Positions 1 through 41,245 of a DNA stretch of 64,000 nucleotides are shown here, in pieces (positions within the stretch are counted from its first letter, which is position 1; each line of letters begins with the position of its first letter). Source of the DNA: Candidatus Levyibacteriota bacterium. Its GTDB lineage: Bacteria > Patescibacteriota > Microgenomatia > Levybacterales > UBA12049. The stretch covers positions 8,203 to 72,202 of the forward strand of contig JBPOIT010000009.1 of the NCBI GenBank assembly GCA_052034235.1. The letters are read 5' to 3'. A program made the translations under genes and the position numbers. Below the pieces are notes generated by a model, which saw only the letters and a list, made by a program, of their open reading frames with translations, ran no database searches and was not told the origin of the DNA.

Positions 1-3000
1 CCAATGATGTCTCAATCATTACTGATGCTGATTCTTTCCTTAATATCAGCGGCTTAACAACAGCAACTGGTAATGTGGTCTGTCTTGATGCCACCAACAA
101 TGTTGTCCGCTGTGCTGCAGGTTCAATTTCATTGCAAGCTGCATATAACAGCGGTAATACTATTACGACAACCAATGCTCGAGGTATCGACTTTACCCTT
201 GCTGATACTGCTACCGATTCTAAATTCTCAGTCACCACGGCAACAGGTTCGACTGCTGGTGTTGAATTCATCAGAGCTGATGGCATTGGCGCAGATGATC
301 CAACACAGCTTGTGCTTATTGATAATGCAGATGCTGACAGAATATTACCAATAGGCCTCAGACTATCCTCCTCCGGCGGTGGCGGTATCACAACTGCGAT
401 TGATGTTTCTGACGCAACGATTGGGACTGCACTTTCATTCGGAGCGAATGATTTGGTAGGAACCAATTTCACCGTTATTGGCGGTACTGGAAACATCACC
501 AGTGCTGGTGACCTTGCTCTTAATGGCGGAGATATCACCACAACACAAACAACAGCAAATGTCTTTAACGGAACGGCAACAACACTTAATGTTGGCGGCT
601 CTGCAACATCACTCACTATCGGTGCAACAACAGGAACTGCGGCCATCAGAAATGCCACCATCTCCCTACCAAATGCGACAGCAATTAATGCAGGCAGCGC
701 AGTCACCACAATTGACTCACTCGTTCTCGGCGGTGGCTATGGCACAAGTGGTCTGAGTATCAGTAACGCAGGCACGATTCAAGCTAACGGCAACTTAACT
801 ATCGACGGGACATCAACCCTTACCGGCAATATCACCAGTGCTGGAGATTTGGCGCTTAATGGCGGCGATATCACCACGACATCACTCAACGCTTCACTCT
901 TTAATGCAAACGCAACCACGATTAACATCGGCAGCGATGCAACAGCTATTACTCTCGGCGCTGCAACTGGCACAACAACTGTTAATAACGACTTAGCAGT
1001 TACCGGCACCGGCACATTTACCGACACTCTAACTGCGAATGGTGATTTTGCAGCAAATGCTGCTTCAACCTTTACACCGTCCGGTACCAATGACGTTGCT
1101 ATCATTACCGATGCTGATTCATTCCTTAACATCAGCGGATTAACAACTCCTGGCGTTGCCGGCTCTACCCTCTGTGTGGATGCATCCGACAATGTCACCA
1201 AATGTGGCGGCGCAACCTTCTCCCTCCAAGCAGCATATGCAGGCGGAAACACGATCACCACAAGTGATGCACGAGGCATCGACTTCACACTTGCTGATAC
1301 AACAACTGATTCTAAATTCAGTGTCACTACTGCGACAGGTTCAACGGGCGGTAGTGAATTCCTGAGAGCTGATGGAGCAGGTACAGATGATCCAGCACAA
1401 CTCGTTCTGATCCAAAACCTTGATGTTGATCGAGCATTACCTATTGGACTGAAGATTGCTGGCGTCACCGGCGGAAATGTCACAACCGCACTTGATCTTT
1501 CAGATGCCAACATCACAACAGCTATCGCACTCGGTGCAAATAATATCATCGGCACACAATTCAGTTTGATTGGATCAACCGGAAATATCATAACCTCAGG
1601 AGATATCGCAGTGAATGGCGGAGACATCACCACAACTTCCGGAACCGGCAATATCTTTACGAGTGGTGCGACGACACTTAACATCGGATCAGCAGCTACA
1701 ACCTACACCGTTGGAGCAACCAATGCGACAGGTAATATCCGTGGTACAACGGTTAACTTCCCTAACGCAACAACGGTTAATGGGACACTCGCAACTGCGA
1801 ACTTTGACACTGTTACTTCCGGACAAGGTTATGGCAATACTGGCGTCACCCTTTCAAGCGCAGGCAACATCTCAGCAAATGGTGCGCTTGTTATAGACGG
1901 CACCTCGACTCTTACCGGAAATGTCACTGCAGTAGCTGATGTCGCAGTCAATGGTGGCGATCTGACATCAAGTCAAACAACATTTAATCTGCTTAACACA
2001 GGTGTCACAACACTTAATATCGGCAGTGCCGCAACAGCAATTTCAATCGGCGCTGCAACTGGCGCAACAACTGTTAACAATGCTTTGAATGTAACAGGGC
2101 TCGCAACATTTAATGGTGGCGCAACGGTTCCAACTGGCGAAACCTTGACTGCAGATGGTGCATCGAACTTTACACCTGACGGCACCAATTCCGTAACTGT
2201 TAATACCGATGGAGATTCATTCCTCAAGCTAACAGGTTTGCAAACGATTACTGGTAATCTGCTCTGTTTGGACGCTTCCGATAATGTTTCAAAGTGTTCA
2301 ACCAGTTCAATCTCACTGCAAGGTGCATACACCGGCGGCAACTCCATCACCACAACAAGTAATCGTGATATCTCCTTCACCCTTGCTGACAGTGTCACAG
2401 ATTCTAACTTTGTCGTGACATCAGCAACAGGCTCAACAGGTGGATCACAATTTGTCAGAGCTGACGGTGCAGGCACATCTGACCCAACGCAACTCGTCCT
2501 GATCCAAAATCTCGACACTGATCGTGACTTACCAATTGGCATGAGAATTGCTGGCGTTACCGGTGGAAATGTCACGACCGCAATTGATTTGTCTGATGCA
2601 AATATTGTTAATGCACTTGATTTGGGAGCAAACAATATAACCGGCACATACTTCTCAGTTGATGGCGGAACTGGCAGCATCACAACAGCAGGAGATATTG
2701 CAGTGAATGGTGGAGATGTTACAACGACATCGACAACTGCAACACTGTTTAACACCGGCGCCACTACCCTATCAATCGGCGGTGTTGCTACGACATACAC
2801 ACTTGGAGCAACCAATGCGACAGGCAATATCCGTGGTACAACCATCAACTTCCCGAATGCAACAACAATCAATGGCACGCTTGCAACCGCGAACTTTGAC
2901 ACTCAGACTGTCGGCGGCGGTTACGGCTCAACAGGCGTCACCATCTCCAACACCGGCAATATCTCAGCAAACGGTAACTTAATTGTTGACGGCACCTCCA

Positions 3001-6000
3001 CACTCACCGGAAACACAACTGTCGGCGGCACACTCGGTGTCACAGGCGCAACAACACTTTCAAGCACACTTGCCGTAACCGGTGACACGACACTGACTGG
3101 AGATCTCGCAGTTAACGGCGGCGATCTAACCACAACTGCTGCTACCTTTAACTTAATCAACGGTAATGCAACAACTGTTAACTTCGCTGGTGCTGCGACA
3201 TCACTCATCATGGGCGCACCAACTGGGACAGCACAAATCAGAAATGACGTTGTCTCACTACCAAATGCAACTGCGTTTGATGCGCTCGCTGCCCTCGCCC
3301 GCGTTGACGGCCTCCAGGTTGGTGGCGGTTACGGAGCAACTGGTGCAACCATCACAAACACAGGAAATATCTCAGCAAACGGCGCATTGGTTATTGATGG
3401 GACATCAACACTCACCGGCAATGTCACCGCTGCTTCAGACGTTGCAATCAACGGCGGAGATCTGACAACAACCCAAACCACCTTTAACTTGCTTGACTCA
3501 GTAGCAACCACGGTTAACTTCGCCGGCGCTGCGACAACACTTGAAATTGGTTCAGGAACCGGAAGAACAACACTTGATAATAACTTGACAGCAAACCTTG
3601 TTGATAACAATGTCGACGCGCTTGATATTCAGGAAGGACTCAATAATTACATCAACATCAACACAAGTGACAATGCTGAAAACATCTCATTTGGTAACGG
3701 TACAACCAACCCAACATACAATTTCGTGGGAACCGGACTGACAACATTTGCAAGTGATATTGCAGTCAACGGCGGTGATATCACCACAACTTCCGGAACT
3801 GGTAATATCTTTACCAGTGGTGCGACAACACTTAACATTGGTTCAGCTGCTACCACCTATACACTCGGTGCAACCAACGCGACAGGAAATATTCGTGGTA
3901 CAACCATCAACTTCCCGAATGCAACAACGATCAATGGCACACTCTCAACTGCAAATTTTGACACTGTTACTTCCGGACAGGGTTATGGCAACACCGGTGT
4001 TACCCTTTCAAACACAGGCAACATCTCAGCAAATGGTGCATTGATTGTTGATGGCACATCAACACTTACCGGAAATGTCACAGCCGGCGCGGATGTCGCA
4101 GTCAACGGCGGAGACCTGACCACAACAGCTGGTACCTTTAACTTGCTTACTGCAAATGCAACAGCAATCAACTTCGGTAGTGCTGCAACTGCTCTTTCAA
4201 TCGGTGCAGGAACGGGTACAACAACAGTTAATAACGCACTCACCGCAACTGGTCTGATCACTGCAAATGGCGGTGCAACGGTTGCAACCGGTCAAACCTT
4301 TACAGCAAATGGCGCATCAACCTTCAACCCTGACAGCAACAACGATGTCACCATTAATACTGATGCTGACTCATTCTTAACCGTTACCGGTCTCCAAACA
4401 GCAACCGGCACACTGGTCTGTCTTGATGGTTCAGACAACATAGCTAAATGTTCAACCAGTTCAATTTCACTGCAATCTGCTTATACCGGCGGCAATACTA
4501 TCGCGACAACTGACAATCGTGATATCGCATTTACCCTGGCCGATACAGCTACTGACAGTAATTTCATTGTCACCACGGCAACAGATTCAACCGGCGGATC
4601 ACAATTCCTCAGAGCTGATGGTGCAGGAACATCCGATCCAACGCAACTCGTCCTGATCCAAAATCTCGATTCAGATAACGCGCTTCCAATCGGGCTTAAG
4701 ATTGCGGGTATCGCTGGAGGCAATATCACCACAGCACTTGATCTGTCTGACACCAACATCACAACTGCAATCGCGCTTGGAGCAAATAGTATCAGCGGCA
4801 CGAATTTCTCACTCAACGGAACAAACGGCAATGTCACAACAGGTGGTGATGTCGCAGTCAATGGTGGAGATCTGACAACTACTTCCGGCACCTTTAACTT
4901 GGTAAACAGTGGCGCAACAACGCTTAACATCGGCGGCGTTGCTACCACCTATACACTCGGTGCAACCAATGCGACAGGAAATATCCGTGGCACAACTGTC
5001 AACTTCCCGAATGCGACAACAATCAACGGTACACTCGCAACAGCGAACTTTGATACCATCACTTCCGGACAAGGTTATGGGACTGCGGGTGTTACCCTTT
5101 CAAATGCTGGTGATATCTCAGCAAACGGTGCACTCATTGTTGACGGAACATCAACACTGACAGGTGATGTCACTGCAGCAGCTGATGTTGCTGTGAACGG
5201 TGGAGACCTGACAACCAGTGCAACGACATTTAATCTTCTTAATACAACAGCAACGACCCTTAACATTGGCGGCGATGCAACAACTGTCAGTATCGGTGAT
5301 GCAACAGGAACAACAACAGTCAATAATGCACTCACCGCAACAGGTCTGATCACAGCAAACGCCGGCGCAACGGTTTCAACAGGTCAGACCTTTACAGCAA
5401 ATGGTCAATCAACCTTTACACCAAACTTAACCAATGACATCAACATCACAACCGATGCAGATTCCTTCCTGAACATTGCAGGACTGACAACTGCAACCGG
5501 CAATACCGTTTGTATCGATGCTACCAACAACATCGTTAAATGTTCAGCTGCTTCTATCACCTTGCAGTCAGCATATGACGGTGGTAACACGATCACCACA
5601 ACTGATGGACGAAGTATCGGCTTCACACTTGCTGACACCACAACAGATGCGAACTTCTCAGTCACAACAGCACCAGGCGGTGAAGGCTACAGCTACTTCG
5701 GACTTACTGACGGCACCAACACTACCTCCCCTGCCCAACTCGTGTTGGTTGAAAATCTTGATACTGATGAAGCTTTGGCAACTGGTATTAGAATTCAATC
5801 AGCAGCTGGTGGTATCACCACAGCACTTGATGTTTCAGATATTGAAATCGGTACTGCCCTCCTCTTTGGTGCTAATGATATTACCGGTACTAATTTCTCA
5901 GTAACAGGAACCAACGGCAACGTCGGAACAGCTGGTACCATAACTGCTGCTGGCAACATTAATGCTAATTCAGGAACACTTGCAACAACACAAACAACTG

Positions 6001-9000
6001 GTAACTTGTTTAATGCAACGGTGACAACACTTAACATTGGCGGTGCGGCTACCACCTACACACTTGGTGCAACCAACGCAACAGGAAATATCCGTGGCAC
6101 AACGATCAACTTCCCGAATGCAACTGCTATCAATGGAACGAGTGCAACTGCTAACTTTGATACCATCACTGCAGGACAGGGATATGGCACTGCTGGTGTT
6201 ACCCTTTCAAATGCTGGTGATATCTCTGCTAATGGTGCACTTATCATTGATGGCACCTCAACACTCACCGGCAATGTCACTGCTGCAACTGACGTTGCTA
6301 TCAACGGCGGAGATCTGACAACCAGTGCCACAACATTTAACTTGCTTAACGCTACGGCAACAACCATTAACTTCGGCAGTGCAGCAACAGCTCTTTCAAT
6401 TGGCGCTGGAACAGGGACGACAAATATCAATAATGATCTCCTTATTGATGGCACCACCACGTCAACAGGACTGGCAACATTCAATGGCGGCGCAACAGTT
6501 GCAACAGGTCAAACATTCTTAGCAAATGGTATCTCAACCTTTTCACCTGACAGTACCAACGATGTCACCATCAATACTGATGCAGATTCAAGACTTGTCT
6601 TAACCGGCCTCCAAACAGCAGCCGGCAATGCGCTTTGTATTGACGCAACAAACAATGTGACACTTTGTAACGGTGCACCATTTGGTTTGCAGGCTGCATA
6701 TAACACAGGCAATACCATCACCACAACTGATGCTCGAGGTATCGACTTTACCCTTGCTAACACATCAACTGATGCAAACTTCTCAGTCACAACAGCTCCT
6801 GGTTCAACAGGTTACAGCTACTTCGCTTTGGCTGATGGTGCAAATGCTACGACTCCATCACAGCTCGTGCTTGTTGAGAATTTGGATACCAATCAAGCAT
6901 TGCCAACAGGTATCAGAATTCAATCAGCAGCAGGCGGTATCACAACAGCACTTGATGTTTCTGATGCTGAAATCGGTACTGCAATCTCCTTTGGAGCAAA
7001 TGATCTGAGCGGCACCTACTTCTCAGTTGCAGGTGGAACTGGTGATGTCACTTCAGCCGGTGACGCAGCATTTAATGGCGGAGACATCACCACCACGTCA
7101 ACAAATGCAAGTCTCTTTGATACCAATGCCACAACGCTTTCAATTGGAGGCGCTGCTACCACACTTACTTTGGGCGGCAATGGCGGCACGGCAACCATCA
7201 ATAACACAACAGTGGCACTAGCAAATGCAACTGCGTTTGATGCACTCACTGCCCTCGCTCGAGTTGATGGACTGCAAGTTGGCGGCGGTTACGGATCAAC
7301 TGGTGTTACCATTACAAACACTGGTAATATCTCAGCAAATGGCAACTTGATTGTCGACGGTACATCAACACTGACCGGTAATGTTACTGCCGGTGCAGAT
7401 GTCGCAGTCAACGGCGGAGATATCACCACGACGTCAACAAATGCAAGTCTCTTTGATACCAATGCCACAACGCTTAATATTGGCGGCGCGGCAACGGCTA
7501 TCGCAGTTGGTGCAGGAACTGGCACAACAACCTTGAATAATAACCTGACAGTAAACTTAGTTGATAACAATGCGAATGCACTTGATATTCAGGAGAACGG
7601 AAACAATTACATCAACATCAATACAACTGACAATGCTGAGAATATTTCATTTGGTAACGGAGCAACCAATCCAACATACAACTTTGTCGGCGCAGGACTT
7701 GCAAGCTTTGCAAGTGATATTGCAGTCAACGGCGGAGACATCCTAACCAGTGCAGCAACTGCAACTGTCTTTAATACCAACGCAACCAACCTTTCAATCG
7801 GCGGTGCAGCAACGACCTTAACACTCGGTGCAACAACAGGAACTGCAACGATCAGAAATGCAACTGTTGCACTGCCAAATGCATTAGTCGGCATCGGCAC
7901 TGCCTCACCTATCTCAGCACTCCAGGTAACCAGACCTCTGTCACTCGGGGCAACAGGCAAAGCTCTTGCTATCTTTGATCAGAATGAAAACCAGGATATC
8001 CTGACAGCATCAGCAGCAGGTGTCACCCGCTTCACCGTTTCAAATGCAGGAAACATCACCAACAGCGGAACAATTACTGCCGGCGGTGATATCACAACTG
8101 CTGGCGATCTCGCAGTGAATGGCGGAGATATCACCACAACAGCCGGTACTTTTAATTTGGTCAACACCGGTGCTACAGCTCTTAATATAGGCGGCGATGC
8201 AACAGCTGTCAGTATCGGTGATACAACCGGTACAACAACAATCAATAACGCTACAGTGAATTTTGCAAATGCGACATCCTTCACTGCTCCAACTGCTGTT
8301 GCAACTTTGGATTCACTCCAAATTGGCGGCGGTTACGGAAGCAGCGGTACAACACTGACAAATACCGGCAACATATCAGCTAACGGCGCACTCATCATTG
8401 ACGGCACCTCAACACTGACCGGCAATGTCACAACTGCTGGCGATATCGCTGTCAACGGCGGAGATATCACGACAACACAAACGACCGCTGCGCTCTTTAA
8501 CACCAACGCAACAACGATTTCTATCGGCAGCGTTGCAACAACCATCTCAATCGGAGCTGGAACTGGCACAACAACCATTAACAATAATTTGGGAGTTACG
8601 GGAACAAGTACCTTTACAGGACTTGGCACCTTTAACGGCGGCGCAACTGTTGCAACTGGTCAAACATTCACAGCAGATGGTATTTCAACATTTACACCTG
8701 ACAATACCAACGATGTCACGATCAATACTGATGCTGATTCATTCCTCGTTCTCTCAGGATTAACAACACCAGTTGCAGCAGGAACAGCATTATGTATTGA
8801 TTCTTCAGATAATGTCACCAAATGTTCAGGCAACACCGTTACCTTGCAAACTGCATACACAGGCGGCAATACCATAACAACAACAGATGCTCGAGGTATC
8901 GACTTTACTCTTGCAAATACAACAACAGACAGTAACTTCTCAGTCACAACTGCTGATGATGCAACCGGTTTCTCAGCATTCACCAGAGTGAACGGCACCG

Positions 9001-12000
9001 GAACCAACAACCCAGCACAGTTGATCCTGGTTGACAATCTCGACACAGATCAAGCAATCGCAGCAGGTATCAAGATCCAATCAGCAGGAGGCGGCATCAC
9101 CAATGGTCTTGATGTGTCAGATGCTCAAATCGTTAATGCAATTGCACTTGGAGATAATAATATAACAGGCACATACTTCTCAGTTGACGGTGGAACCGGA
9201 AGTATCACCAGTGCTGGAGATATCGCAGTCAACGGCGGCGATGTAACAACCTCAGCAACAACTGGAAATCTCTTTAATGCAGGTGCAACGATCGTTAATG
9301 TTGGCGGTGCGGCGACAACCGTTGCAATCGGTGCCGCAACAGGAACGACAACCATCTATAACCAAACCCTTGCTCTGCCAAATGCAACAGCAATCAATGC
9401 AGGCAGTGCAGTCACCACAATTGACTCACTCGTCCTCGGCGGCGGCTACGGCACGAGTGGCCTGAGTATCAGTAATGCTGGCACCATTCAGGCAAATGGC
9501 AATCTCACAATCGACGGCACATCAACACTCACAGGAGATGTCTCAACGGCTGGAGATTTGGCTGTCAATGGCGGTGACATCACAACCACAGCTGGTATAG
9601 TTAATTTGGTAAATGCAAATGCAACAACCATCAACTTCGGCAGTGCAGCAACAGCTCTTTCAATAGGAGCAGCAACTGGCACAACGAACATCAACAACAA
9701 TTTGCTTGTTGATGGCACAACGACATCAACCGGACTTGCAACATTTAACGGTGGTGCAACTGTCTCAACTGGTCAGACATTCTTAGCAGATGGCATCTCA
9801 ACATTCTCACCTGACAGCACCAATGATGTCACCATCAATACTGACAGTGACTCCTTCCTCGTACTTACAGGTTTAACAACACCAGTCGCAGCTGGCACAC
9901 AACTTTGTGTTGACGCAACAAACAATGTCACCAAATGTTCAGGTAACACTGTCACCTTGCAATCTGCATACACCGGCGGCAATACCATCACCACAACAGA
10001 TGACAGAACAATTTCATTCACACTTGCTGACACTGCAATTGACAGTAACTTCAGTGTCCAAACAGCTGCCGGTTCAACAGGTTATAACTACTTCAGTTTG
10101 CAGAATGGCACCAACACCACCTCCCCTGCCCAGCTCGTGTTGGTTGAAAATCTGGATGTGAACGAAGCATTAGCAACAGGTATAAGAATCCAATCAGCAG
10201 CAGGAGGCATCACAACAGCACTTGATCTTTCAGATGCTGACATCGTGACTGCCCTATTACTTGGTCTTAATGATGTGACAGCAACAAATTATTCAATCGC
10301 AGGAGCAACCGGCAACATCACAACAGCTGGAAATGTCGCAGTCAACGGCGGCGCTATTACAACAACTGCCGGAACAGCAACAATCTTTAATACCGGCGCA
10401 ACTGACCTTTCAATCGGCGGCGACGCAACAACCCTTTCAATCGGTGATGCTACCGGAACAGCGACCATTAATAATGCAACCGTCGCTCTCTCAAATGCGA
10501 CAGCATTTGATGCGCTCACTGCTCTCGCCAGAGTTGATTCACTGCAAGTTGGCGGCGGATACGGCGCAGCAGGTGTCACCATCAGTAACGCCGGCACCAT
10601 TCAGGCAAATGGCAATCTCACAATTGACGGCACATCAACACTCACAGGAGATGTGACTGCAGCAGGAGATGTTGCAGTAAACGGCGGAGATATCACAACA
10701 AGTGCAACAACCTTTAATCTCGCCACTGCAACAGCAACAACACTTAATATCGGCAGCGCTGGAACAACGATCTCAATCGGAGCAAATACCGGTACAACAA
10801 CCATCAATAACGATGTTGTCGTTGATGGAACCGGCACATTCTCAGGACTGGGAACATTTAATGGCGGTGCAACTGTTGCCAACGGCCAATCATTCACAGC
10901 CGGCGGCCAATCAACATTCACACCAACCGGCACAACTGATGTCGTTATCAACACTGATGCAGACTCACTTTTGACCGTTACCGGTTTGCCAACACTCACC
11001 GGCACAGCTGTTTGTATCGATGGCTCAAACACCATTGCAAAATGTTCAGCAGACTCTATCACCTTACAGTCTGCATATAACGGCGGCAATACCATCACCA
11101 CAACCGATGCACGTGATATTTCATTCACGCTTGCTGATACCACTACTGATTCTAAATTCGCAGTCACCACAGCTACAGGTTCAACCGGCGGTGTCGAATT
11201 TACCAGAGCTGATGGTGCGGGTACAGCAGATCCTTCACAGTTAGTACTCATCCAAAATCTTGATACCAACCGAGCATTGCCAGTTGGTTTGAAGATTGCT
11301 GGCGTTTCAGGCGGTAATCTGACCACCGCACTTGATTTGTCAGATGCTAACATCACAACAGCAATTGCACTTGGTACCAATAATGTTGTCGGCACGAACT
11401 TCTCAATCACCGGTTCAAACGGCAATATCGGAACAGCAGGAACAGTAACAGCTGCTGGCAACATCAATGCAAATTCAGGAACACTCGCAACAACCGAAAC
11501 AACCGGTAACCTGTTTAATGCAACAGTGACGACACTTAACATTGGCGGCGCTGCGACAACTGTTGAAATCGGCGCAGCAACAGGAACCACCTCCATCAAC
11601 AACTTAACCGTTGCTCTTGATAATGCAACTGCTTTTGATGCGCTCTCAGCTCTCGCCCGAGTTGACGGCCTCCAAGTTGGCGGTGGTTATGGAGCAGCAG
11701 GCGTCACCGTTTCAAACACTGGTAATATCTCAGCAAATGGTGCCTTGATCGTCGATGGAACCTCAACACTTACTGGCGATGTCACTGCAGCTGGTGATCT
11801 CGCAGTTAATGGCGGAGACCTGACAACAAGTGCAACAACCTTTAACTTGCTTAACGCAACTGCGACAACTGTTAACTTTGCAGGAGCTGCCACTACCCTT
11901 TCAATCGGAGCCGCAACAGGTACTTCAAATATCAATAACAACTTGCTTGTTGATGGCACAACCACATCAACTGGTCTTGCAACATTTAACGGCGGTGCAA

Positions 12001-24000: not shown

Positions 24001-27000
24001 CAACACTTAACATTGGAAATGATGCAACAACGGTAAGTATCGGTGAAACAACTGGTACAACAACAGTGAATAATGATTTGGCAGTTACCGGAGCTGGAAC
24101 CTTCACGGGAACACTCACAGCAAATGGTGATTTTGCAGCCAACAGTGCATCCGCCTTCACACCATCAGGAACCAATGATGTCACGATCACCAGTGATGCA
24201 GATTCATTCCTCGTGTTGCCAGGCCTCACTACTCCAGGAACAGCCGGCTCAACACTTTGTGTCGATGCAACCAATAACGTTACCAAATGTTCAGCCAACA
24301 CAATCACCTTGCAGTCTGCATACACAGGCGGTAACACGATCACCACAACCAATAACAGAGATATCTCATTCACACTTGCCAATACTGCAACAGACAGTAA
24401 CTTTGCTGTCACAACTGCTGATGATTCAACCGGTTACGCAGCATTCACCAGAGTGAACGGCACCGGCACAAACAACCCAGCACAGTTGATCCTTGTTGAT
24501 AATCTCGATACAGACCAAGCAATCGCAGCCGGTATCAAAATCCAATCAGCTGCTGGTACCATCACCAACGGCATTGATCTTTCAGATATAGATATTGTTA
24601 ATGCCCTTTCGCTTGGTGCAAACGACATCATCGCTACCAACTTCACACTCGATGGCACAACCGGCACAATCACAACCGCTGGAGATTTGGCTCTTAACGG
24701 CAGTGATATTACAACAACATCAACGGGTATTGCATCAGTCTTTAATACCAATGCAACAACACTTAACGTCGGCGGCGCGGCAACTGCTCTTAATCTCGGC
24801 GCGGCAACTGGAACAGCAACGATAAACAATGCAACCATTAACTTCCCAACTGCGACATCTTTCACTGCGCCAAATGCAGCTGCAACATTTAGTTCAGTAG
24901 CAATCGGCGGCGGATACGGTTCAACCGGCGTCACTATCAGTACCGCTGGCAACATCCAGGCAAACGGCACCTTAACAGTTGATGGCGTCTCAACACTCAC
25001 CGGCAATGTGACAGCAGCTGCTGATCTCGCTGTTAACGGCGGTGACCTGACAACAAATCAAACAACATTTAACCTGATCGACGCTGGTGCAACCACCGTT
25101 AACTTTGCTGGTGCTGCAACAACACTTGCAATCGGTGCAGGTACCGGAACAACAACACTTGATAACAACCTGACTGCAAATCTCGTTGACAACAATGCAG
25201 ATGCACTTGATATCCAGGAGAACGGCTACAATTACATTAACATCAACACAACAGACGGCTCTGAAGAAGTTGCATTTGGCAATGGCACAACCAACCCAAT
25301 CTACTCATTCTTAGGAAATGGTGCGACATCATTTGCAGGAAACGTTGCAGTCAACGGCGGCACACTCTCAACATCACAATCATCAGCCAACTTGTTCAAC
25401 ACCAATGCAACAACGCTTAGCGTCGGCGGCGCTGCAACAACACTTAACTTGGGTGCAACAACAGGAACTGCAAACATCAGAAACGTAACGATTAACTTTG
25501 CCAATGCAACATCCTTCACTGCACCAAATGCAGCTGCAACCTTTGATTCAGTCGCAATCGGCGGCGGTTATGGTTCAACAGGTGTCACCATCAGTAACGC
25601 TGGAAATATCCAGGCAAACGGAACCTTAACAGTTGACGGTGTTTCAACTCTTACCGGCAATGTCACAGCAGCTGCTGATGTTGCAATCAACGGCGGCGAT
25701 TTGACATCAAGTCAAACGACATTTAACCTCCTCAACAGCGGTGTGACAACACTCAATATCGGAAGTGATGCAACTGTTCTTTCACTTGGAGACGCAACTG
25801 GAACAACAACAGTGAATAACGCACTGACAGTAACAGGTGCTGCAACATTTAATGGCGGTGCAACTGTCCCAGCAAGTCAAACATTCTCAGCAAATGGTGT
25901 TTCAACATTTGCACCAAACTTAACCAATGATGTCACCTTCACCACTGATTCGGATTCAACAATTATCCTTAACGGTTTGGGAACAACAACCGGTACCCCA
26001 CTCTGTCTTGACGCCACCAACAATGTCGTCCAATGTGCAAACGCATCACTCAGTCTGCAAAACGCATATGTTGGCGGCAACACCATAACGACAACTGATG
26101 CACGAAATATTTCATTCACTCTTGCTGATACCGCAACTGACAGCAACTTCAGTGTTCAAACTGCAGCCGGCGGCGCTGGTTACAGCTACTTCGGTTTGGT
26201 TGACGGCACTAACACCGCTCCTCCAGCACAGCTTGTTTTGATTGAAAATCTGGATACTGATGAAGCTTTGGATACAGGCCTCAGGATCCAAGCAGACGCA
26301 GGCGGCATAAATACAGCTATCGATTTGTCTGATACAGACATTGATACTGCACTTTTACTCGGTGCAAATGATGTCACCGGCTCTAACTTCTCTATCACCG
26401 GCACCAACGGCAATATTGGAACCGGCGGTACCATCACAGCAACCGGCAATATCAATGCAAATTCAGGAACGATTGCAACGAGTCAATCAACCGGAAATCT
26501 GTTTAATACAACAGCAACAACCCTTAACATCGGCGGTGCTGCTACTACGTACACACTCGGTGCAACCAATGCAACAGGAAACATCCGCGGAACAACGATC
26601 AACTTCCCGAATGCGACAACCATCAATGGAACCCTGGCAACAGCTAACTTTGACATCATCACATCAGGTCAAGGTTTTGGAAATTCAGGTGTCACCCTTG
26701 CAAGTAACGGCAACATTTCAGGTGATGGAGACTTAACAATCGGCGGTGCTGCTGCAATTACTGGTACAGCAACAGTTACTGGTGATGTCGCAGTCAACGG
26801 CGGCGATCTGACAACCACTGCAACCACCTTTAACTTACTTAACAGTACAGCAACAACTGTTAACTTCGCCGGTGCAGCAACAACACTGGCAATCGGTGCA
26901 GGAACTGGCACAACAAACATCAACAATGACTTGCTCATTGACGGCACAACCACGTCAACCGGACTTGCAACCTTTAATGGCGGTGCAACAGTTTCAAATG

Positions 27001-30000
27001 GACAAACATTTAATGCAAATGGCGCATCAAACTTTGCACCAACATTAACAAATGACATCACCTTTACAACCGATACTGATTCAACTGTTATCCTTAACGG
27101 TTTGGGAACAACAACCGGTACCCCACTCTGTCTTGATGCCACAAACAATGTTGTTCAATGTGCAAATGCAACACTCAGTCTGCAAAATGCCTATGCAGGT
27201 GGTAACACGATCACCACAACTGATGCACGAAATATCGGCTTCACACTTGCTAACACAACAACTGACAGTAACTTTACCGTTACCACAGCTGCAGGCAGTG
27301 AAGGTTACAGCTACTTCGGACTTGCTGATGGCACAAACACCGCTCCTCCAGCACAACTCGTTCTGGTTGAGAATCTTGACACCGATGAAGCATTGCCAGC
27401 TGGTATTAAGATTCAATCAGCAGCCGGCGGCATCACCAATGGTATTGATCTTTCAGATCCTGAAATCCTTAATGCATTGTCACTTGGTCTTAATGATGTC
27501 ACTGCAAATAACTTCTCTATCACCGGATCAAACGGCAATATTGGCACTGGCGGCACCATCACCGCAACCGGCAACATCACAACAGCTGGTGATGTTGCAG
27601 CCAACGGCGGCGATGTGACAACCACTACGTCAACAGGAAATCTGTTCAATACCAACGCAACAACGGTTAACATTGGTGGTGTTGCAACAGCACTGACACT
27701 CGGTGCAAATACAGGAAGTGCAACAATCAGAAATGAGACAGTCACCTTCTCCAATGCAACAACCTTTGATGCAACAAGTGCAACTGCCAACTTCAACATT
27801 GTTACTGCAGGACAAGGGTATGGTAATACCGGAGTCACACTTGGTAACACTGGTAATATCCAGGCAAACGGCACCTTAACAATTGACAGCACGTCAACAC
27901 TTACCGGTAATGTCACCGCTGCAGCTGATGTTGCAATCAACGGCGGAGATTTGACATCAAGTCAAACAACATTTAACTTACTTAACAGCGGTGTCACCAC
28001 ACTTAATGTTGGCGGCGTTGCAACTGCACTTAATTTCGGTGCAGCAACAGGAACAACAACCATCAACAACCTGACACTCGCCCTGCCAAACGCAACTGCA
28101 ATCAATGCAACAGCTGCAACAGCAAATCTTGATATTGTAAATGTTGGCGGCGGTTACGGTTCAGCTGGTGTCACACTTGGCAACACCGGAAACATTCAGG
28201 CAAACGGCAACTTAACAATCGACGGCACATCAACACTGACCGGTGATGTTACCGCTGCAGCTGATGTTGCAATCAACGGCGGAGACCTGACATCAAGTCA
28301 AACAACCTTCAATCTGCTCAATAGCGGTGTCACAACACTTAATGTTGGCGGCGCTGCAACAACACTTTCACTCGGTGCTGGAACAGGAACAACAACACTT
28401 AACAACAACCTGACAGCAAACTTGATGGATGACAGTGCTGATGCACTTGATATTCAGGAAGCATCACACAATTACATCAACGTGAATACAACGAACAATT
28501 TTGAAGAAATTCAATTTGGCAATACTGTCACGAACCCAATCTATTCATTCCTCGGTAGTGGCGCTTCCACATTCTCAGGAAATATCAATGCCAATTCCGG
28601 AACAATCGCCACCAACCAAACAATAGCAAATCTGTTTAATACAACAGCAACAACACTCAGTATTGGCGGCGCAGCAACCAACTTAACAATGGGTGCAAAC
28701 AACTCAGGAACAACAACAATCAGAAACTCAACACTTGCTCTGCCAAATGCTCGTGTCGGTATCGGTACATCAACTCCTATCTCAATGCTACATGTCACTC
28801 GCCCACTTTCACTCGGTGCGATTGGTAAAGCAACAGCAATCTTTGATCAATATGAGAGTCAGGATATTCTTACTGCATCAGCAGCAGGAACAACCCGCTT
28901 CACTGTTTCAAATGCAGGAAACATCACCAACAGCGGAACAATCACAGCAGGTGGAGATATCACAACAACCGGCGATGTCGCAGTTAACGGCGGTGACCTG
29001 ACAACAACAGCTGGCACTGCTGCTCTCTTCAATACGGGTGCAACAACAGTTAATATCGGCGGCGCTGCAACAACAGTTAATATCGGAAATGCTGCAGGAA
29101 CAACATTTGTTAATGGCGGACTCACAGTTGCCAACGGTGAAACATTTACTGCCGGCGGTCAATCAACCTTCACACCAACCGGTACCAACGGTGTGACCAT
29201 TACAACAGATGCAGATTCATTCCTGACAGTTAACGGCCTGGCATCTGCAACCGGAACAGCAGTGTGTATCGATGCCACAAACCACATTATTACCTGTGAT
29301 GATGCTTCCCAAAGTCTGCAATCTGCATATGACAATGGCAACAGTATCACAACAACTAATAACCGTGATATCGACTTCACTCTTGCAAACACTGGAACTG
29401 ATTCTCTCTTCAGTGTCTCAACCGCTGATGATTCAACCGGTTATTCAGTGTTCTCAAGAACAAACGGTGCAGGAACAAATGACCCAACGCAGCTCGTGCT
29501 TATTGATAACGAAGATGCAGATCGCGCATTGCCAGTTGGTTTGAAGATTTCTTCAACCGGCGGCGGCGGTATTACAACTGGTATTGATTTGTCAGATGCA
29601 ACTATTGATGATGCAATCATTCTTGGTGCAAATGACGTCGTCGGCTCAAGCTTTACTATTGATGGTTCAAACGGCAACATTACAACAACTGGAGTCATTG
29701 CAGCAAATGGCGGTTCAATTACCACCAACCAAACAACAGCAAATGTGTTTAATACAAACGCAACATCACTCTCTATCGGCGGTGCTGCAACAACACTTAA
29801 TCTCGGTGCAACAACAGGAACGGCAGCCATCAGAAATGCGACAATTTCATTCCCGAACGCAACAACAGTTAGTGCAGCAAACGCAACCGGCAACTTCAGT
29901 GCACTCACAACCGGCGGCGGTTATGCATCAACTGGTACAACCATTTCAAGTACTGGTGATATCCAAACCAAAGGCGCGTTAACTGTTGATGGTATTTCAA

Positions 30001-33000
30001 CACTCACCGGTAATGTCACCGCCAGTGCTGATCTTGCAGTCAACGGCGGAGATCTCACAACAACATCCGGCACTGCTGCCCTCTTCAATACTGGTGCAAC
30101 AACACTTAATATAGGCGGCGCTGCAACGACTGTTTCAATCGGCAACGCAGCTGGTACAACAACAGTCAATGGTGGTTTGACAGTTGCTAATGGTGAGACA
30201 TTCACTGCCGGCGGTCAATCAACCTTCACACCAACCGGTACCAATGGCATTGCTATCACAACCGATGCAGATTCATTCTTAACAATTGACGGCTTGGCAG
30301 CAGTAACAGGAGGTACACTTTGTGTCAACACGTCAGACCAGGTCGGAACCTGTTCAGCAGCTTCATTCAGTCTGCAAGCTGCGTACGATGCCGGCAATAA
30401 TATTACAACAACCGATGCAAAGCCTATCGACTTTGTCCTTGCAAACACCACAACAGACAGTAACTTCTCAGTTACAACTGCTGATGGATCAATTGGTCAT
30501 TCAGTCTTTGCAAGAGCAAATGGTGTCGGCACATCCGATCCAGCACAGTTGATCCTTGTTGACAATCTTGATACAAACCGTGCAGTTGCAGCTGGTATTA
30601 AAGTCCAAGCAGCTAGCGGCGGTATCACCAACGGTATTGATCTTTCAGACGCAGAAATCCTTAATGCTCTCTCACTTGGCGATAACGATATCATCTCAAC
30701 CAACTTCACACTCACCGGTTCAAATGGTAATTTGACAACAACAGGTGCAATTGCTGCGAACGGCGGTACCATTTCAACTGATGACACAACCTTCACCTTG
30801 GTCGATGCAAATGCAACAACCGTCAACTTTGCAGGCGCTGCAACAACACTTAACATTGGTGCAGGAAGCGGTACAGCAACAATCAATAACCAGACAATCA
30901 GTCTGCCAAACGCAACAGCACTTAGTGCAAGTGGTGCAACAGTGACAATTGATGCAGCTACTATCGGTGGTGGTTACGGATCAGCTGGCGTCAGTATCAC
31001 CAATGCCGGCAACATCTCAGCAAACGGTGCTTTGATCGTTGATGGTACTTCAACACTCACCGGCAATGTCAGTACCAATGGTGATATCGCAGTCAACGGC
31101 GGAGATGTCACCACAACATTTGCAACAGGAAATCTGTTTAACTCAGGAGCTACAACGCTTAACATCGGCGGTGCTGCGACAACAGTTTCACTTGGAAATG
31201 CTGGCGGTACCACAACAATTAACGGCAACTTAACACTCGGTGCAGATAAGACACTGACAACAACCGGTGCTGTCTCTCTCACTCCATCCGGCACATTGGA
31301 TGTTGCAATCACAACCGATTCAGATTCATTCCTAAACATCAGCGGTTTGACAACAACAACAGGTGCACAGCCAACCCTTTGTGTAGACGCAACGAACAAC
31401 GTTGTCAAATGTGACTTAACTGCAAATGCCAGTCTCCAAGCTGCCTATGACAATGGCAACAGTATCGCCACAACCAACAATCGCAATATTGATTTCACAT
31501 TGACAAATGACGTTACCGATTCAAACTTCTTAATCACAACAGCTGATGGTTCAACCGGTAAAACAATCTTTGCTCGAGCAAACGGTGCAGGTACAACTGA
31601 TCCAAGTCAGTTGGTTCTCATTAATAATGCTGATGCAAATCGCCCATTGCCTGTTGGTCTCGCAATCACCTCTTCAGGTGGCGGCGGTGTCACAACTGGT
31701 ATTGATTTGTCAGATGCTTCAATTGATGATGCATTGGTTCTCGGCGCAAATGACGTCGTCGGCTCAAGCTTCACCATTGATGGTTCTAATGGCAACATCC
31801 AAACTTCTGGAACTGCTGCAATCAACAGCGGCACCATTTCAACAACATCATCAACCGGCTCACTTTTTGATACCAACGCAACAACGATTACTTTAGGAAG
31901 TGCAGCAACGACCTACACAATCGGTGCAACCAATGCGACAGGAAATATCCGTGGAACAACCATCAACTTCCCGAATGCGACAACAATTAATGGCACCGCT
32001 GCAGCACTTAACGTTCTCTCATCTGCAATCGGCGGCGGTTACGGAACAGCTGGAACAACCCTTTCCGCAGCAGGTGACATTTCAGCCAACGGCGCACTCA
32101 TTGTTGACGGCACGTCAACATTAACAGGTGCTGTGACTGCATCAAACGGCGTGACCATTAACGGTGCTTCAACATCAGATTTGATTGCAGCCAAGACAAC
32201 AGCAAATCTCTTCAACACTGTTGCAACAACACTTAACATCGGCGGTGCAGCAACAACAATTAATATTGGCAATGCAGCAGGAACAACAACAGTTAATGGT
32301 GGTTTGACAGTTGCTAATGGTGAGACATTCACTGCCGGCGGTCAATCGAACTTCACACCAACCGGTACTGACGGTATCACCATCACCACAGATGCAGATT
32401 CATTCCTGACACTTAACGGCCTTGCTTCTGATCCTGGAACTGCTATTTGTATCGATGCTACAAACCATGTCATCACCTGTGACAACACATCACAAAACTT
32501 GCAAGCTGCATATGATGCTGGCAATAACATCACCACAACAGATGCACGATCCATCGACTTTGTTCTTGATGACACAACAACTGATAGTAACTTCAGTGTC
32601 ACAACAGCTGACGGTGCAACAGGTTACTCAGTCTTCTCAAGAGAGAATGGTACAGGAACAGCAGATCCAGCACAATTGATTTTGGTTGATAATGCAGATG
32701 CAAACAGACCAATCACAACCGGCATCAAAGTCACCTCCTCCGGCGGCGGCGGATTTGGAACTGGTATTGATGTTTCAGATGCAAGTATCACAACTGGCAT
32801 CGCACTTGGCGAAAACGACTTATCAGCAACCAACTTCTCGATCGTCGGCTCAACAGGTAACTTCTCAACCAATGGAGATCTTGAAGTAAAAGGCAATGAC
32901 ATCACGACAACAACAGCTGGTGTCGCTGCTGTCTTTAACACCAACGCAACAACCATTAACATCGGCGGTGCGGCAACGACATACACACTTGGCGCAACCA

Positions 33001-36000
33001 ATGCGACAGGAAATATCCGTGGTACCACGATTAACCTGCCGAACGCAACAACACTCTCAGCAACAAGCGCGACAGCGAATTTTGATATCGTCACATCGGG
33101 CGGCGGTTACAGTAACTCAGGAGTCACGCTTTCAACTGCCGGTGATATTTCAGCAAATGGCGCACTCATTGTTGATGGCACATCAACCTTGACCGGCAAT
33201 GTGACTGCAAGTGCTGATGTCGCAGTCAACGGTGGAGATCTTACAACTACTGCTGGAACAGCTTCGATCTTTAATGCCAGCGCAACCACCATCAATTTGG
33301 GTGCAGGCGCAACAACAGGTATCAACATCGGTAATGCAGCAGGTACCACAACAGTCAATAGTGCACTGACAGTTGCAGCAGCTAGAACCTTTACAGCGGG
33401 CGGCCAATCAACCTTTAATCCAGACAGCACCAATGATGTCACAATGAACCTTGATGCTGATTCATTCTTAACACTCGTCGGTCTTCAATCAGCAGCCGGC
33501 AGTGGTCTGTGTATTAACGCCACCAATCAAGTTGTTGCATGTAATGATGCATCAGAAGGTTTGCAAGCTGCATATGACAACGGCAACAGTATCACGACAA
33601 CAACTGCACGTGACATCGTCTTTAATTTGGATGACACAGCAACTGATTCAAAGTTTGCAATCAATACCCTCTCTGGTGCAGCTGGCGGTGTTGAAATCAG
33701 TAGAGCTGATGGTACCGGAACAACAGATCCAACACAATTAGTTTTGATCCAAAACCAGGATACCAACAGAGCATTGCCAATTGCACTTCGAATCACCGGT
33801 GTCGCAGGCGGCGCTGTCACAACAGCACTTGATGTTTCAAATGCAGATATTGTTACAGCAATTGCACTTGGCGCCAATGACATCACCGGCTCTGTCTTTA
33901 ATGTCACCGGCTCAAATGGTAATGTCACAGCAGGAAATGTCGCAGTCAACGGCGGAGACCTGACAACAACTGCTGGGACCTTTAACTTGGTAAATACTGG
34001 TGCGACAACACTTAATGTCGGCGGTGCTGCTACCACCTACACACTCGGTGCAACCAACGCAACCGGAAATATCCGTGGCACAACAATCAACTTCCCGAAT
34101 GCAACATCAATTGTCGGGTCAGCTGCAACAGCAAGCTTCGCACAACTCAACACAGGCGGCGGTTATGGTTCAACAGGAACGACAATCGAAGGCAATGGCA
34201 CAATTAAAACCAAAGGTAACCTGACAGTTGACGGCACTTCCCTCCTCTCAGGTATTGCAACTGCATCTGCAGGTTTGGTAATTGATGGTGTCACACAATC
34301 AAGTCTTATTGCAGTAAAATCAACAGCAAATCTGTTTAATACTGTTGCGACGACACTTAATATCGGCGGCGCAGCAACAACTGTTTCACTCGGAGCAACA
34401 GGTGGAACAACAACAGTCAATGGAGCATTAACCGTTGCAAGTGCGCAAGCATTCCAAGCACTTGGTAACGCAACGCTTGGAAATGGCGATGATACAATCG
34501 CACTTAACGGCACAACAATTACACTGACAGCAAATGGCGCAGGCAATGACATCACTGCAAATCTGGTTGACGACAACACAGATGCACTTGATATCCAGCA
34601 AGGTACAAACAACTACATCAACATCAACACCTCAAATGGTACTGAAGAAATTCAATTTGGTAACGTTTCAACCAACCCAGATTACACATTCCTCGGAACC
34701 AGTGCGATGACCGTTGGTGGAGATTTGATTGTTAACGGTGGCGACCTGTATGCAACATCTGGTACAACAGTTAACTTATTCAACACCGCACAAACTGATA
34801 ATTTGAACATCGGTACTGATGCAAATGCAACCGTTTCAATCGGCGGTGCAAGTACACTGACAACAATCAATGGCGGACTGACCGTTTCAAGTACAACACT
34901 GAACACCAATATCGGTTCCCCACTCGTCAACTTGTCAGGCAACAATGCAGTAATCGATATGTCAGGAACCGGCACACTCGGCATCAACACCACAACAGAC
35001 AGAGCCGTCAACTTCGGAGCCGGTGCATTTAGTATTGAATCAGCAACAGTAACACTTACCGGTACCAACCCAGCAATTGCTGCATCCGGTGCAAACAATC
35101 TGCAGATTAATGGCGGCGCATCAGGACTTGTTCAAATTAACAACACCTCAACAGGAAACGTCGAAATCGCCGGCGGTTCAGGTGCAACTGGTTGTACCAT
35201 CAATAACAGTACCGGCGCACTTACCTGTTCAGGAAATATCACCTCAAGTGGCAGCTCAGGAAGTGTTACTGTCGGTTACTTCAGTAAAGACTTCGCAACA
35301 GGTGTTATCTCAAATGCAACTGCGAGTGATACCCTTGCTGTGAGTACAACCAGTGTTACCCAGCCAGCACTCGCTCTCACCAACAGTTCAACTGCTGGTG
35401 CAGCAAGTGGCACAACATACATGCTTGATATCCTCCGCTCTGGTGCTAATGCAAATGCTACCCATACTGCATACGGTGTCAGATCACGAGTAACCAATAC
35501 AGGATCAGGTGAAACAAATATTGCCGGTTACTTCTCCGCTTCAGGTGATGGAACTGGGGCTTATTATGCAGGTATCTTTGATGCAGGGAATGTCGGTGTC
35601 GGAACAACTGCTCCAAATGATAAATTAGTTCTTGGTGCAGGAAACAACTTCGGTATCAATGTCGGAGCTCCAACAACACTCTCTCTCACACCAAATGTAG
35701 GTGGTGGTACATTTGCAGCTGGAACATATTACTACAAAGTGACAGCGCTTGATGCAGCTGGTAATGAAACAACAAACAGTACTGAAAGTAGTGCAACAGT
35801 TGCACTTAACGGAACTATCAATGTTGACTGGGCGGCTGTATCAGGTGCGACATCATATCGCATATACCGTGGAACATCATCCAATAATCAGACAGTTTAC
35901 TTCACATCAACAAGTGATGTGTATCTTGATACAGGAACAGCTGGAACAGCTGGAACACCTCCATCAACTGGTTTCAACAATGCATATGCAATTAAACTGC

Positions 36001-41228: not shown

Positions 41229-41245
41229 TAGCTCGTATTCAGAAA

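What the first reader, a model, noticed from the sequence alone, without database searches (positions are those of the whole stretch)
81..34700. Higher-order mosaic architecture: about 25 super-repeats, two subfamilies and a duplicated multi-unit segment
Units anchored on the C-x-D-x2-[DN]N-x3-C motif recur every ~1.1 kb. Five units are ~2.1 kb because they carry the ALDIQE/NYININT insert, at 3588, 7548, 25172, 28412 and 34552. The unit order between ~2270 and 8800 is insert-unit, plain, plain, then insert + VGIGTASP unit. The order between ~24258 and 29266 is insert-unit, plain, then insert + VGIGTSTP unit. That looks like an ancient duplication of a ~6-kb multi-unit segment. The last five units (29.2-34.6 kb) belong to a distinct subfamily (LPVGLKISSTGGGGITTG), and the first unit of the window resembles that subfamily too. 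So the protein is not a simple homopolymeric array. It has a defined supramodular grammar, which suggests segmental length control or functionally distinct stalk zones.
Basis: seen in the sequence. Interest (0 to 1): 0.6.

Follow-up and report, generated by a model that had tools for sequence, protein, structure and literature searches.

The report
Mosaic repeat array in giant fibre gene
Most of this window is the end of one enormous gene (over 13,300 codons) from an ultrasmall uncultured bacterium, encoding a probable surface fibre built from about 25 old, diverged repeat units that are patchily shuffled rather than copied as a 6-kb block, and the order of the last six units is kept in related genomes.

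Summary
Nt 3-39941 is one open frame that runs off the 5' edge. It encodes at least 13,312 aa of a Thr/Ala/Gly/Asn-rich protein with no Pfam, NCBIfam or PDB relative. RuvB relatives place the organism in the Patescibacteria (Microgenomates).

Confirmed:
- 25 Cys-loop anchors
- a unit of about 1.1 kb
- five ALDIQ/NYININT modules and two VGIGT modules, at the stated positions and in the stated order

Corrected:
- Units are strings of smaller modules: head H, 112-aa repeat F, half-repeat P plus neck, I and V.
- Only three insert-bearing units are about 2.1 kb.
- Three other odd-sized units were missed, one holding a 1,000-aa non-array region at 13.2-16.2 kb.
- Heads fall into at least four types, not two.

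The proposed 6-kb segment duplication is not supported. Unit pairs U3/U18 and U6/U20 have ordinary similarity. The I cores pair within the proposed segments, not between them. The best paralogue switches every 0.3-0.95 kb. No multi-unit collinear run beats shuffled unit order (p about 0.25-0.3).

The broader idea of a defined grammar does hold for the end of the array. Two other genomes have the same last six units by count, length and special-module position. In one of them the units are position-for-position orthologues. Function as an adhesion fibre is inferred only.

The parts
3..39941 (+). Giant ORF, 5'-truncated by the window edge. At least 13,312 codons lie in the window and the stop codon is at 39939-39941.
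   Evidence: the frame is open from nt 3, and a neck motif (DADSFL) precedes the first head, so at least one more unit lies upstream. The array region is T 20%, A 14%, G 13% and N 10%. All Cys residues occur as close pairs.
81..13229 (+). Array block 1, units U1-U10. The canonical unit is H (Cys-loop head, about 145 aa), F (112-aa repeat), P (half repeat) and neck, 364-376 aa in all. U3 reads H F F P I F P n and U6 reads H F P I P V F P n.
13230..16244 (+). Non-array region inside U10. It has its own repeats: two 164-aa copies (offset 492 nt) carrying a V-like GKAL..NETGDQNILTAS motif, and two 289-aa copies (offset 867 nt).
   Evidence: Its relatives are 1-2 kaa Microgenomates proteins that their sources name tail fibre or hemagglutinin.
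16356..29264 (+). Array block 2, units U11-U20. It includes U11 (short, 296 aa), U15 (H F F P n, 481 aa), U18 (H F P I F P n, 582 aa) and U20 (H F F P I P V P n, 712 aa).
29265..34547 (+). Terminal units U21-U25. U21-U24 are 352-356 aa long, with short necks of 95-98 aa (a type that begins with the neck of U20 at 28980). The GGGG head signature is in U21, U23 and U24 only.
   Evidence: Positional orthologues are present in L003.
3582..3761 (+). I module core (NLxANLVDNNxDALDIQE..NYININT..) in U3.
7542..7721 (+). I module core in U6.
   Evidence: It is 83% aa identical to the U3 core.
25167..25346 (+). I module core in U18.
28407..28586 (+). I module core in U20.
   Evidence: An I module sits at the same position in L002 and L003.
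34548..34727 (+). I module core in U25, the last array element before the tail.
   Evidence: It is conserved in L002 and L003.
7722..8111 (+). P+V module of U6 (VGIGTASP...DILTASAAG...). V takes the place of the second half of an F repeat.
28584..28979 (+). P+V module of U20, 75% aa identical to the U6 copy.
   Evidence: V is present at the orthologous position in L002 and is replaced by an F half in L003.
5960..6500 (+). One copy of the most similar internal pair (F5 and the start of the neck). The partner lies at 22475-23015.
   Evidence: 87-100% nt identity, with 6200-6379 at 98-100%. F5 and F16 share 111 of 112 aa.
22475..23015 (+). Partner copy (F16) of the near-identical tract.
34728..39938 (+). 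Non-repeat C-terminal region of about 1,740 aa. It holds three further Cys pairs, two related ~90-aa modules, a heptad-like Ala/Leu/Ser-rich stretch and a terminal domain.
   Evidence: Pfam, PHROGs and PDB give nothing significant. It is 52-56% identical to the ends of L002 and L003.

Best explanation
The region is the 3' 39.9 kb of a single giant gene in a Patescibacteria (Microgenomates, Levybacteria-like) genome. It encodes a probably extracellular, fibre-like protein.

The protein is assembled from a small set of modules:
- H: a Cys-loop head of about 145 aa
- F: a 112-aa repeat
- P plus neck: a half repeat and a neck
- I: a 60-aa module
- V: a module that replaces the second half of an F

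These are strung into at least 25 super-repeats of about 364 aa. A 1,000-aa unrelated region interrupts the array, and a 1,740-aa non-repeat tail follows it.

The higher-order pattern is real. It is best explained as an old tandem array whose units diverged long ago (60-65% mean aa identity, synonymous sites near saturation). The array shows neighbour-wise relatedness and has since been patched by short intragenic exchanges of about 0.3-1 kb (gene conversion or unequal crossover). As a result, the head, repeat and neck of one unit usually have different closest relatives.

The I and I-P-V composites are module-level insertions or copies. They are not markers of a duplicated 6-kb block.

The order, number and lengths of the last six units predate the split from at least two other genomes, so the array is stable, not a fast-changing one.

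Shown: the anatomy, the mosaic and the positional orthology. Inferred: an extracellular location (paired Cys residues and composition), and a role as a long attachment fibre in which unit number sets length.
For: Anatomy.

Mosaic structure:
- H, F and neck have different best partners in nearly every unit.
- Type combinations reshuffle between units.
- The similarity matrices of the three module types correlate only weakly (r = 0.13-0.26).
- In 300-nt best-paralogue painting the longest constant-offset run is 953 nt and the median is about 305 nt.

Age and selection: codon positions 1 and 2 are 77-90% identical and position 3 only 45-55%, in both paralogous and orthologous comparisons.

Exchange tract: F5 and F16 share 111/112 aa, with an identical 180-nt core.

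Neighbour effect: Mantel p = 0.0002-0.006.

Positional orthology:
- L003 is collinear with the window at a constant offset of 8829-8850 aa.
- Whole-unit identity on the diagonal is 74/68/76/71/68/69%, against 51-63% off it.
- Unit lengths are 712/352/353/356/354/561 aa in the window, 693/352/353/356/353/558 in L003 and 697/353/360/354/353/558 in L002.
- The beta-lactamase-family gene downstream is syntenic (47% identity).

Taxon: the closest named RuvB relatives are Levyibacteriota (83%) and Gottesmanbacteria (79%).

Fibre-like nature:
- Composition.
- Homologues are named 'beta strand repeat-containing protein', 'tail fiber domain-containing protein' or 'Hemagluttinin family protein' by their sources.
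- F/P modules hit PHROG 4527 (short tail fibre) at E = 4e-12.
Against: - No structure supports the fibre reading. The AF2 monomer models (pLDDT 80.5 for a unit, 71.2 for a head) show almost no DSSP secondary structure and have no Foldseek match in the PDB. BFVD gives only non-significant tail-fibre hits.
- No signal peptide or anchor could be examined, because the N-terminus lies outside the window.
- Exchange breakpoints do not cluster at module boundaries, so 'module shuffling' is a description, not a demonstrated mechanism.
- L002 keeps the architecture, but its units show only a weak diagonal.
- Orthologue coverage is limited to the last roughly 4,200 aa, so stability of the rest of the array is not known.
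Confidence: 0.7

Rival explanations
1. A multi-unit segment of about 6 kb (I-unit, plain unit(s), I+V unit) was duplicated long ago, giving U3-U6 and U18-U20. Later deletion of one plain unit and local gene conversion blurred the signal.
For: - The two stretches have the same order of unit kinds.
- Two reciprocal-best patches lie on the predicted diagonal: 3308-3782 with 24893-25367 (76%) and 7710-8310 with 28578-29178 (71%).
- The F-P-I-P-V composite is shared by U6 and U20 (1212 nt, 70.7%).
- U5/U19 composite identity is at the 98th percentile.
Against: - U3/U18 is at the 37th percentile and U6/U20 at the 75th.
- I cores pair within segments (U3/U6 83%) and U6/U20 is the lowest pair among these four cores, at 58%.
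- Collinear best-paralogue windows make up only 10-14% of either segment, no more than the target's share of the array.
- The mapping ranks at the 62nd-84th percentile of all 3-unit collinear runs, and even the best run in the gene is not significant (p = 0.26).
- The strongest off-diagonal block links other units (4826-7552 with 21341-24085, 75.9%).
Confidence: 0.12
2. The pattern is an assembly artefact. A short-read assembler mis-joined or collapsed repeat units, so the unit order is not biological.
For: The gene is highly repetitive. One tract of 180-420 nt is 98-100% identical between two places 16.5 kb apart, which could allow a false join. Short-read contigs of the same organism from other samples are 7-48 kb long.
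Against: - Units differ by 25-35% at nucleotide level almost everywhere.
- The frame stays open for 39.9 kb.
- An independently assembled complete chromosome (L003) and a second MAG (L002) have the same terminal architecture, and L003 is collinear over about 13 kb.
Confidence: 0.05
3. The order of modules is itself selected. I and V modules would mark hinges or knobs, and the short-neck terminal zone a distinct distal part, so the array acts as a ruler with position-specific functions rather than as a merely slowly evolving array.
For: - The count, lengths and I/V positions of the last six units are conserved in three genomes, even where unit sequences have diverged to paralogue level (L002).
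- Strong purifying selection is seen.
- F5/F16 have 26 synonymous differences against 1 replacement.
Against: - No functional or structural data exist.
- In L003 the V half is replaced by an F half at the same position, so at least V is dispensable there.
- Conservation may simply reflect low turnover, because diverged repeats recombine rarely.
Confidence: 0.2

Closest known systems
Unnamed 'beta strand repeat-containing' and 'tail fiber domain-containing' proteins of Microgenomates and other uncultured bacteria
   Same: They share the head and F/P modules: 45-64% identity to fragments. 358 proteins carry the head domain. V modules repeat many times in other giant ORFs.
   Different: The listed relatives carry 1-8 heads in 0.6-4.9 kaa proteins, whereas this protein has at least 25 in over 13 kaa. 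Some relatives carry Peptidase_S74, Mtd_N or bactofilin Pfam hits that were not found here.
Trimeric autotransporter adhesins such as BadA and YadA, with repeated head/neck/stalk modules (my own knowledge)
   Same: Both are long surface fibres built from a few module kinds repeated in a set order, with length set by repeat number.
   Different: No YadA head, stalk or anchor domains were detected. Patescibacteria lack an outer membrane to hold a beta-barrel anchor. There is no evidence of trimerisation.
Titin and nebulin super-repeats (my own knowledge)
   Same: Both are giant proteins whose domains form higher-order super-repeats. Domains at equivalent positions are more alike between species than neighbouring domains are within one protein.
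   Different: The folds, the organisms and the cellular location (intracellular for titin and nebulin) are unrelated. This is an analogy only.
Giant proteins of Omnitrophota (bioRxiv 10.1101/2023.11.21.568195)
   Same: Both are very large genes in small uncultured bacteria with host- or prey-dependent lifestyles, and both are proposed to act in cell-cell interaction.
   Different: The Omnitrophota proteins are rich in identifiable domains such as HEAT, TPR, dockerin and enzymes. This protein has no known domain and is a near-pure array.
Phage long and short tail fibres (PHROG 4527)
   Same: The composition is similar, and the F/P modules hit the profile weakly (E = 4e-12). The BFVD hits are all fibre-like but not significant.
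   Different: There are no phage genes nearby. The locus is syntenic with housekeeping genes in three genomes. No S74 chaperone domain is present.

Membership tests
Trimeric autotransporter adhesin (YadA/BadA type) | C-terminal YadA-like beta-barrel membrane anchor | tested here: not met
   A Pfam scan of the last 1,900 aa at E <= 0.1 gives no YadA_anchor hit.
Trimeric autotransporter adhesin (YadA/BadA type) | YadA head, neck or stalk repeat motifs | tested here: not met
   A Pfam scan of units U1-U3 and of the mid region gives no such family.
Trimeric autotransporter adhesin (YadA/BadA type) | Homotrimeric assembly | not testable with these tools
   Only monomer AF2 prediction is available. 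The models lack intrachain secondary structure, which neither shows nor excludes an intertwined oligomer.
Phage tail fibre with Peptidase_S74 intramolecular chaperone | C-terminal S74 autoproteolytic chaperone domain | tested here: not met
   There is no PF13884 hit in the window protein. The domain is present in some distant relatives.
Phage tail fibre with Peptidase_S74 intramolecular chaperone | Location in a phage or prophage gene cluster | tested here: not met
   The flanking genes are beta-lactamase-family, PKD/CBM96, Wzy_C, P-type ATPase, RuvABC and LeuRS-like.
Bactofilin / DUF342-type beta-helix | Match to PF04519 | tested here: not met
   No hit at E <= 0.1. Only some distant homologues carry it.
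Head-domain family defined here (profile A3) | C-x9-C loop followed by LQxAY, then about 125 aa with conserved F38, D46, P74-Q-L, N82-D84 and D108-S110 | tested here: met
   All 25 window heads align, with 29 invariant columns. 358 library proteins match at E <= 1e-3. No curated family covers it.
Concerted-evolution tandem array (near-identical repeats, rapid copy-number change) | High identity between repeats within one gene, exceeding identity between orthologous repeats | tested here: not met
   Mean paralogue identity is 60-64%. Positional orthologues in L003 are 68-76% identical, against 51-63% for non-positional pairs.
(p = 0.25-0.31 for the best runs).

The most novel reading that the evidence does not exclude
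The protein is an intertwined, oligomeric fibre several hundred nanometres long, displayed by an ultrasmall Patescibacteria cell. Its unit number and module order are under selection as a ruler with position-specific elements: I and V as joints or knobs, and a distinct short-neck distal zone. This would explain why the terminal six-unit architecture persists in three genomes even after unit sequences have diverged to paralogue level.
Probability: 0.2. Interest if true: 0.7.

Novelty: new variant of a known kind. Interest (0 to 1): 0.45.

Why it matters
Patescibacteria live attached to other cells, and little is known about how they attach. One gene of over 40 kb in a genome of about 1-1.6 Mb is a large investment, and it is built from domains that no database describes.

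The array is old, under purifying selection and position-for-position conserved between genomes. This separates it from the fast-changing, near-identical repeat arrays typical of bacterial adhesins. It also gives concrete targets for structural work and imaging: the head domain, and the I and V modules.

For the scan itself, the result shows that similar unit order alone does not demonstrate a segmental duplication.

Tried and rejected
- Tandem Repeats Finder reported nothing, because the periods exceed 500 nt and the copies are under 75% identical.
- Pfam, NCBIfam and PDB sequence searches of a unit, the mid region and the tail gave no significant family.
- AF2 models of a unit and of a head were moderately confident but had no DSSP strands, so they did not settle the fold.
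The tool listed only proteins up to about 1.7 times the query length, so full-length giant orthologues could not be retrieved.
- An exact look-up of the adjacent beta-lactamase-family gene was not on record.
- A metagenome scan anchored on the mid region returned only distant relatives with other architectures, so orthologues of U1-U19 were not obtained. L001 and L010 are frameshifted long-read contigs of more distant homologues.
- I tested whether exchange breakpoints cluster at module boundaries. They do not.
- I considered the block 4826-7552 / 21341-24085 as an alternative multi-unit duplication. At unit level it is not significant. Its signal comes mainly from F5/F16 and the adjacent necks.


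Full report
**What is there**

The + strand carries one reading frame that is open from nt 3 to a stop at 39941. The first residues in the window are the neck of a preceding unit, so the gene starts upstream of the window. At least 13,312 codons lie inside it.

The array region is 20% Thr, 14% Ala, 13% Gly and 10% Asn, with about 2% Lys+Arg+Glu. All 56 Cys residues occur as close pairs.

The higher G+C of the gene (47-48%, against 35-44% in the flanks) and the many antisense ORFs probably follow from this composition. I did not test that.

The flanks encode two beta-lactamase-family proteins, a PKD/CBM96 protein, a Wzy_C-TPR protein, a P-type ATPase, RuvA/B/C and a class I tRNA synthetase. This is a cellular chromosome. 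The closest named RuvB relatives are Levyibacteriota (83%) and Gottesmanbacteria (79%), which places the organism in the Patescibacteria, Microgenomates group.

**Check of the observation**

There are 25 C-x9-C anchors.

Motif spacing shows that each super-repeat is a string of smaller modules:
- H: a head of about 145 aa carrying the Cys loop
- F: a full 112-aa repeat (AVNGGD ... GGGYG ... DGTSTLTG)
- P: a half repeat of about 58 aa
- n: a neck of about 50 aa (DADSFL)

The canonical unit H-F-P-n is 364-376 aa long, and 352-356 aa in the last units. The non-canonical units are:

| Unit | Module string | Length (aa) |
|---|---|---|
| U3 | H F F P I F P n | 718 |
| U6 | H F P I P V F P n | 719 |
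| U10 | contains a ~1,000-aa non-array region with its own 164-aa and 289-aa repeats | 1405 |
| U11 | shortened | 296 |
| U15 | H F F P n | 481 |
| U18 | H F P I F P n | 582 |
| U20 | H F F P I P V P n | 712 |
| U25 | H F .. I, then the tail | not bounded by a further head |

Three corrections apply:
- Only three insert units are about 2.1 kb.
- The I core is only about 60 aa.
- Three other odd-sized units and the mid-gene interruption were missed.

**Dot-plot and unit relationships**

Self-BLASTN gives 65-76% identity between units everywhere, with no long high-identity block.

For every 300-nt window I found its best in-frame paralogue. The best partner changes about every 0.3-0.95 kb, and the longest constant-offset run is 953 nt.

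Pairwise identity matrices for H, F and P+neck show that the three modules of one unit nearly always have different closest relatives. The three matrices correlate only weakly (r = 0.13-0.26).

UPGMA clustering gives these head groups:
- {2, 3, 4, 9}
- {5, 6, 8, 11, 14-17, 19, 20}
- {7, 10, 12, 13, 18, 22}
- {21, 23}
- singletons 1, 24 and 25

The F and neck groupings differ from this, so type combinations are reshuffled. Similarity falls with distance along the array (Mantel p = 0.0002-0.006), so zones exist. F type d fills U12-U18 except U16, and the short-neck type begins with the neck of U20: necks 20, 21 and 23 cluster, while those of U22 and U24 are equally short but more diverged.

**The proposed 6-kb duplication**

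- Composite identities are U3/U18 59.7% (37th percentile), U4/U19 64.2% (67th), U5/U19 74.0% (98th) and U6/U20 65.4% (75th).
- I cores are closest within the proposed segments: U3/U6 83%, against U3/U18 68% and U6/U20 58%.
- Only 10-14% of windows in either segment have their best paralogue collinear in the other. That is no more than the target's share of the array.
- With unit order shuffled, the best collinear runs of 2, 3 or 4 units are matched or exceeded in 25-31% of permutations.

What survives is two short reciprocal-best patches on the predicted diagonal and a shared 1.2-kb F-P-I-P-V composite in U6 and U20 (70.7% nt; V modules 75% aa).

The strongest internal relationship lies elsewhere, at 4826-7552 with 21341-24085 (75.9%). 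It peaks in F5/F16, which share 111/112 aa and have a 180-nt core at 98-100%.

**Subfamily claim**

The GGGG signature is in U1, U21, U23 and U24. U22's head is of the U10 type (C-terminal half 84% identical). U25's head is nearest the U2/U4/U9 type. U1 is a chimera: its N-terminal half is closest to U2 (72%) and its C-terminal half to U21 (71%).

**Orthologous loci**

The C-terminal 909 aa find two genome loci, L003 (a 1.61-Mb chromosome, 56% identity) and L002 (52%). Both are giant ORFs that run beyond the 10-kb flank. A beta-lactamase-family gene downstream is syntenic in L003 (47% identity).

L003 is collinear with window aa ~8950-13288 at a constant offset.

| Locus | Lengths of the last six units (aa) |
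|---|---|
| Window | 712/352/353/356/354/561 |
| L003 | 693/352/353/356/353/558 |
| L002 | 697/353/360/354/353/558 |

Whole-unit identity between L003 and the window is 74/68/76/71/68/69% on the diagonal and 51-63% off it. These units are therefore positional orthologues, older than the species split.

L002 keeps the count, the lengths, the I+V unit and the terminal I unit, but its diagonal is only weakly higher. In L003 the V half of the U20 equivalent is replaced by an F half, and some F modules match non-positional window units better. That is module replacement in one lineage.

Codon positions 1 and 2 are much better conserved than position 3 in both orthologous and paralogous comparisons. 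This indicates purifying selection and old divergence.

**What it is and how it probably works**

No Pfam, NCBIfam or PDB relative exists for the unit, the mid region or the tail.

A profile of the head finds only 358 proteins among 1.84 billion representatives. The listed ones are mostly 0.1-4.9 kaa long, with 1-8 matched head stretches. Relatives are named beta strand repeat-containing, tail fibre or hemagglutinin proteins by their sources. F/P modules hit a phage short-tail-fibre PHROG at E = 4e-12. In other giant metagenomic ORFs the V module is the main repeat, so the modules belong to a shared toolkit.

The AF2 monomer models (pLDDT 80.5 and 71.2) contain almost no DSSP secondary structure and match nothing in the PDB. 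The fold remains open. An intertwined oligomer is one possibility that I could not test.

My best reading is an extracellular attachment fibre whose length is set by unit number. It arose by old tandem amplification, diverged under purifying selection and was patched by short intragenic exchanges. The evolutionary part is shown by the analyses above. The cellular role is inference.

**Novelty and verdict**

Giant repetitive surface proteins are a known kind. This one has an undescribed unit, an extreme copy number for its family and a demonstrably stable, position-conserved terminal architecture.

The headline interpretation of a duplicated 6-kb segment is not supported. The general idea of a defined grammar is supported for the terminal zone and untested elsewhere.

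Noticed in passing
window 5958-6293 and 22473-22808: F5 and F16 are 111/112 aa identical, yet they differ at 26 synonymous third positions, all within the first ~80 codons. The last 32 codons have no third-position differences. Other F pairs with similar third-position identity are only about 85% aa identical. The cause could be nested conversion events or unusually strong constraint on this module variant.
   Followed up: partly
window ~53095-54245; also L004 13465-14494, L005, L006, L007 and L009: A ComM/YifB-like Mg-chelatase gene is called as two overlapping ORFs (a 74-aa ChlI part and a 266-271-aa part) in five of the six contigs returned from other samples (in L008 no 74-aa part was called). 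This suggests a fixed frameshift or a split gene, not a sequencing error.
   Followed up: no
L002 and L003 record titles: Both MAG records are titled 'uncultured Gammaproteobacteria bacterium'. The window's RuvB groups with Levyibacteriota and Gottesmanbacteria, and a protein from L003's 1.61-Mb chromosome is 87% identical to it. The taxonomic labels are probably wrong.
   Followed up: partly
L019/L037 (Ga0214473_10000936), L016, L028: Other giant open frames (over 4,600-5,800 aa within the loci) use the V module (VGIGT, then DILTAS about 36 aa later) as their main repeat, every 300-400 aa. The same module occurs only twice in the window's array.
   Followed up: partly
P0122, P0123, P0130, P0133, P0135, P0295, P0375: Microgenomates relatives of the mid region carry precomputed HTH_17/MerR Pfam hits. 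Some head-domain proteins begin with an HTH-like N-terminus (e.g. ...TIQEAAKFLKVS). That is an odd start for a presumed surface fibre.
   Followed up: no
window 40248-42253: Two tandem beta-lactamase-family (PF13354) genes lie directly downstream of the giant gene on the opposite strand. A 47%-identical counterpart of the proximal one sits at the same position in L003.
   Followed up: partly
window 37500-38700 (aa ~12440-12530 and ~12740-12830): The C-terminal tail holds two related modules (…GRVPVKV.T.NG.I..GD.L..S..PGVAMKAT…) and a third, weaker one near the end. The third gives a sub-threshold Phage_cement_2 hit (E = 0.0024).
   Followed up: no
window 779-39223, minus strand: Seventeen ORFs of 155-333 aa lie antisense to the giant gene. 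They are most likely by-products of its biased, repetitive codon usage and not genes.
   Followed up: no
L010 (ERZ25039540 contig_56253): A more distant homologue has Cys-loop heads at a regular 431-433-aa period, so the super-repeat design differs between lineages. The gene is broken into several ORFs on this long-read contig.
   Followed up: partly
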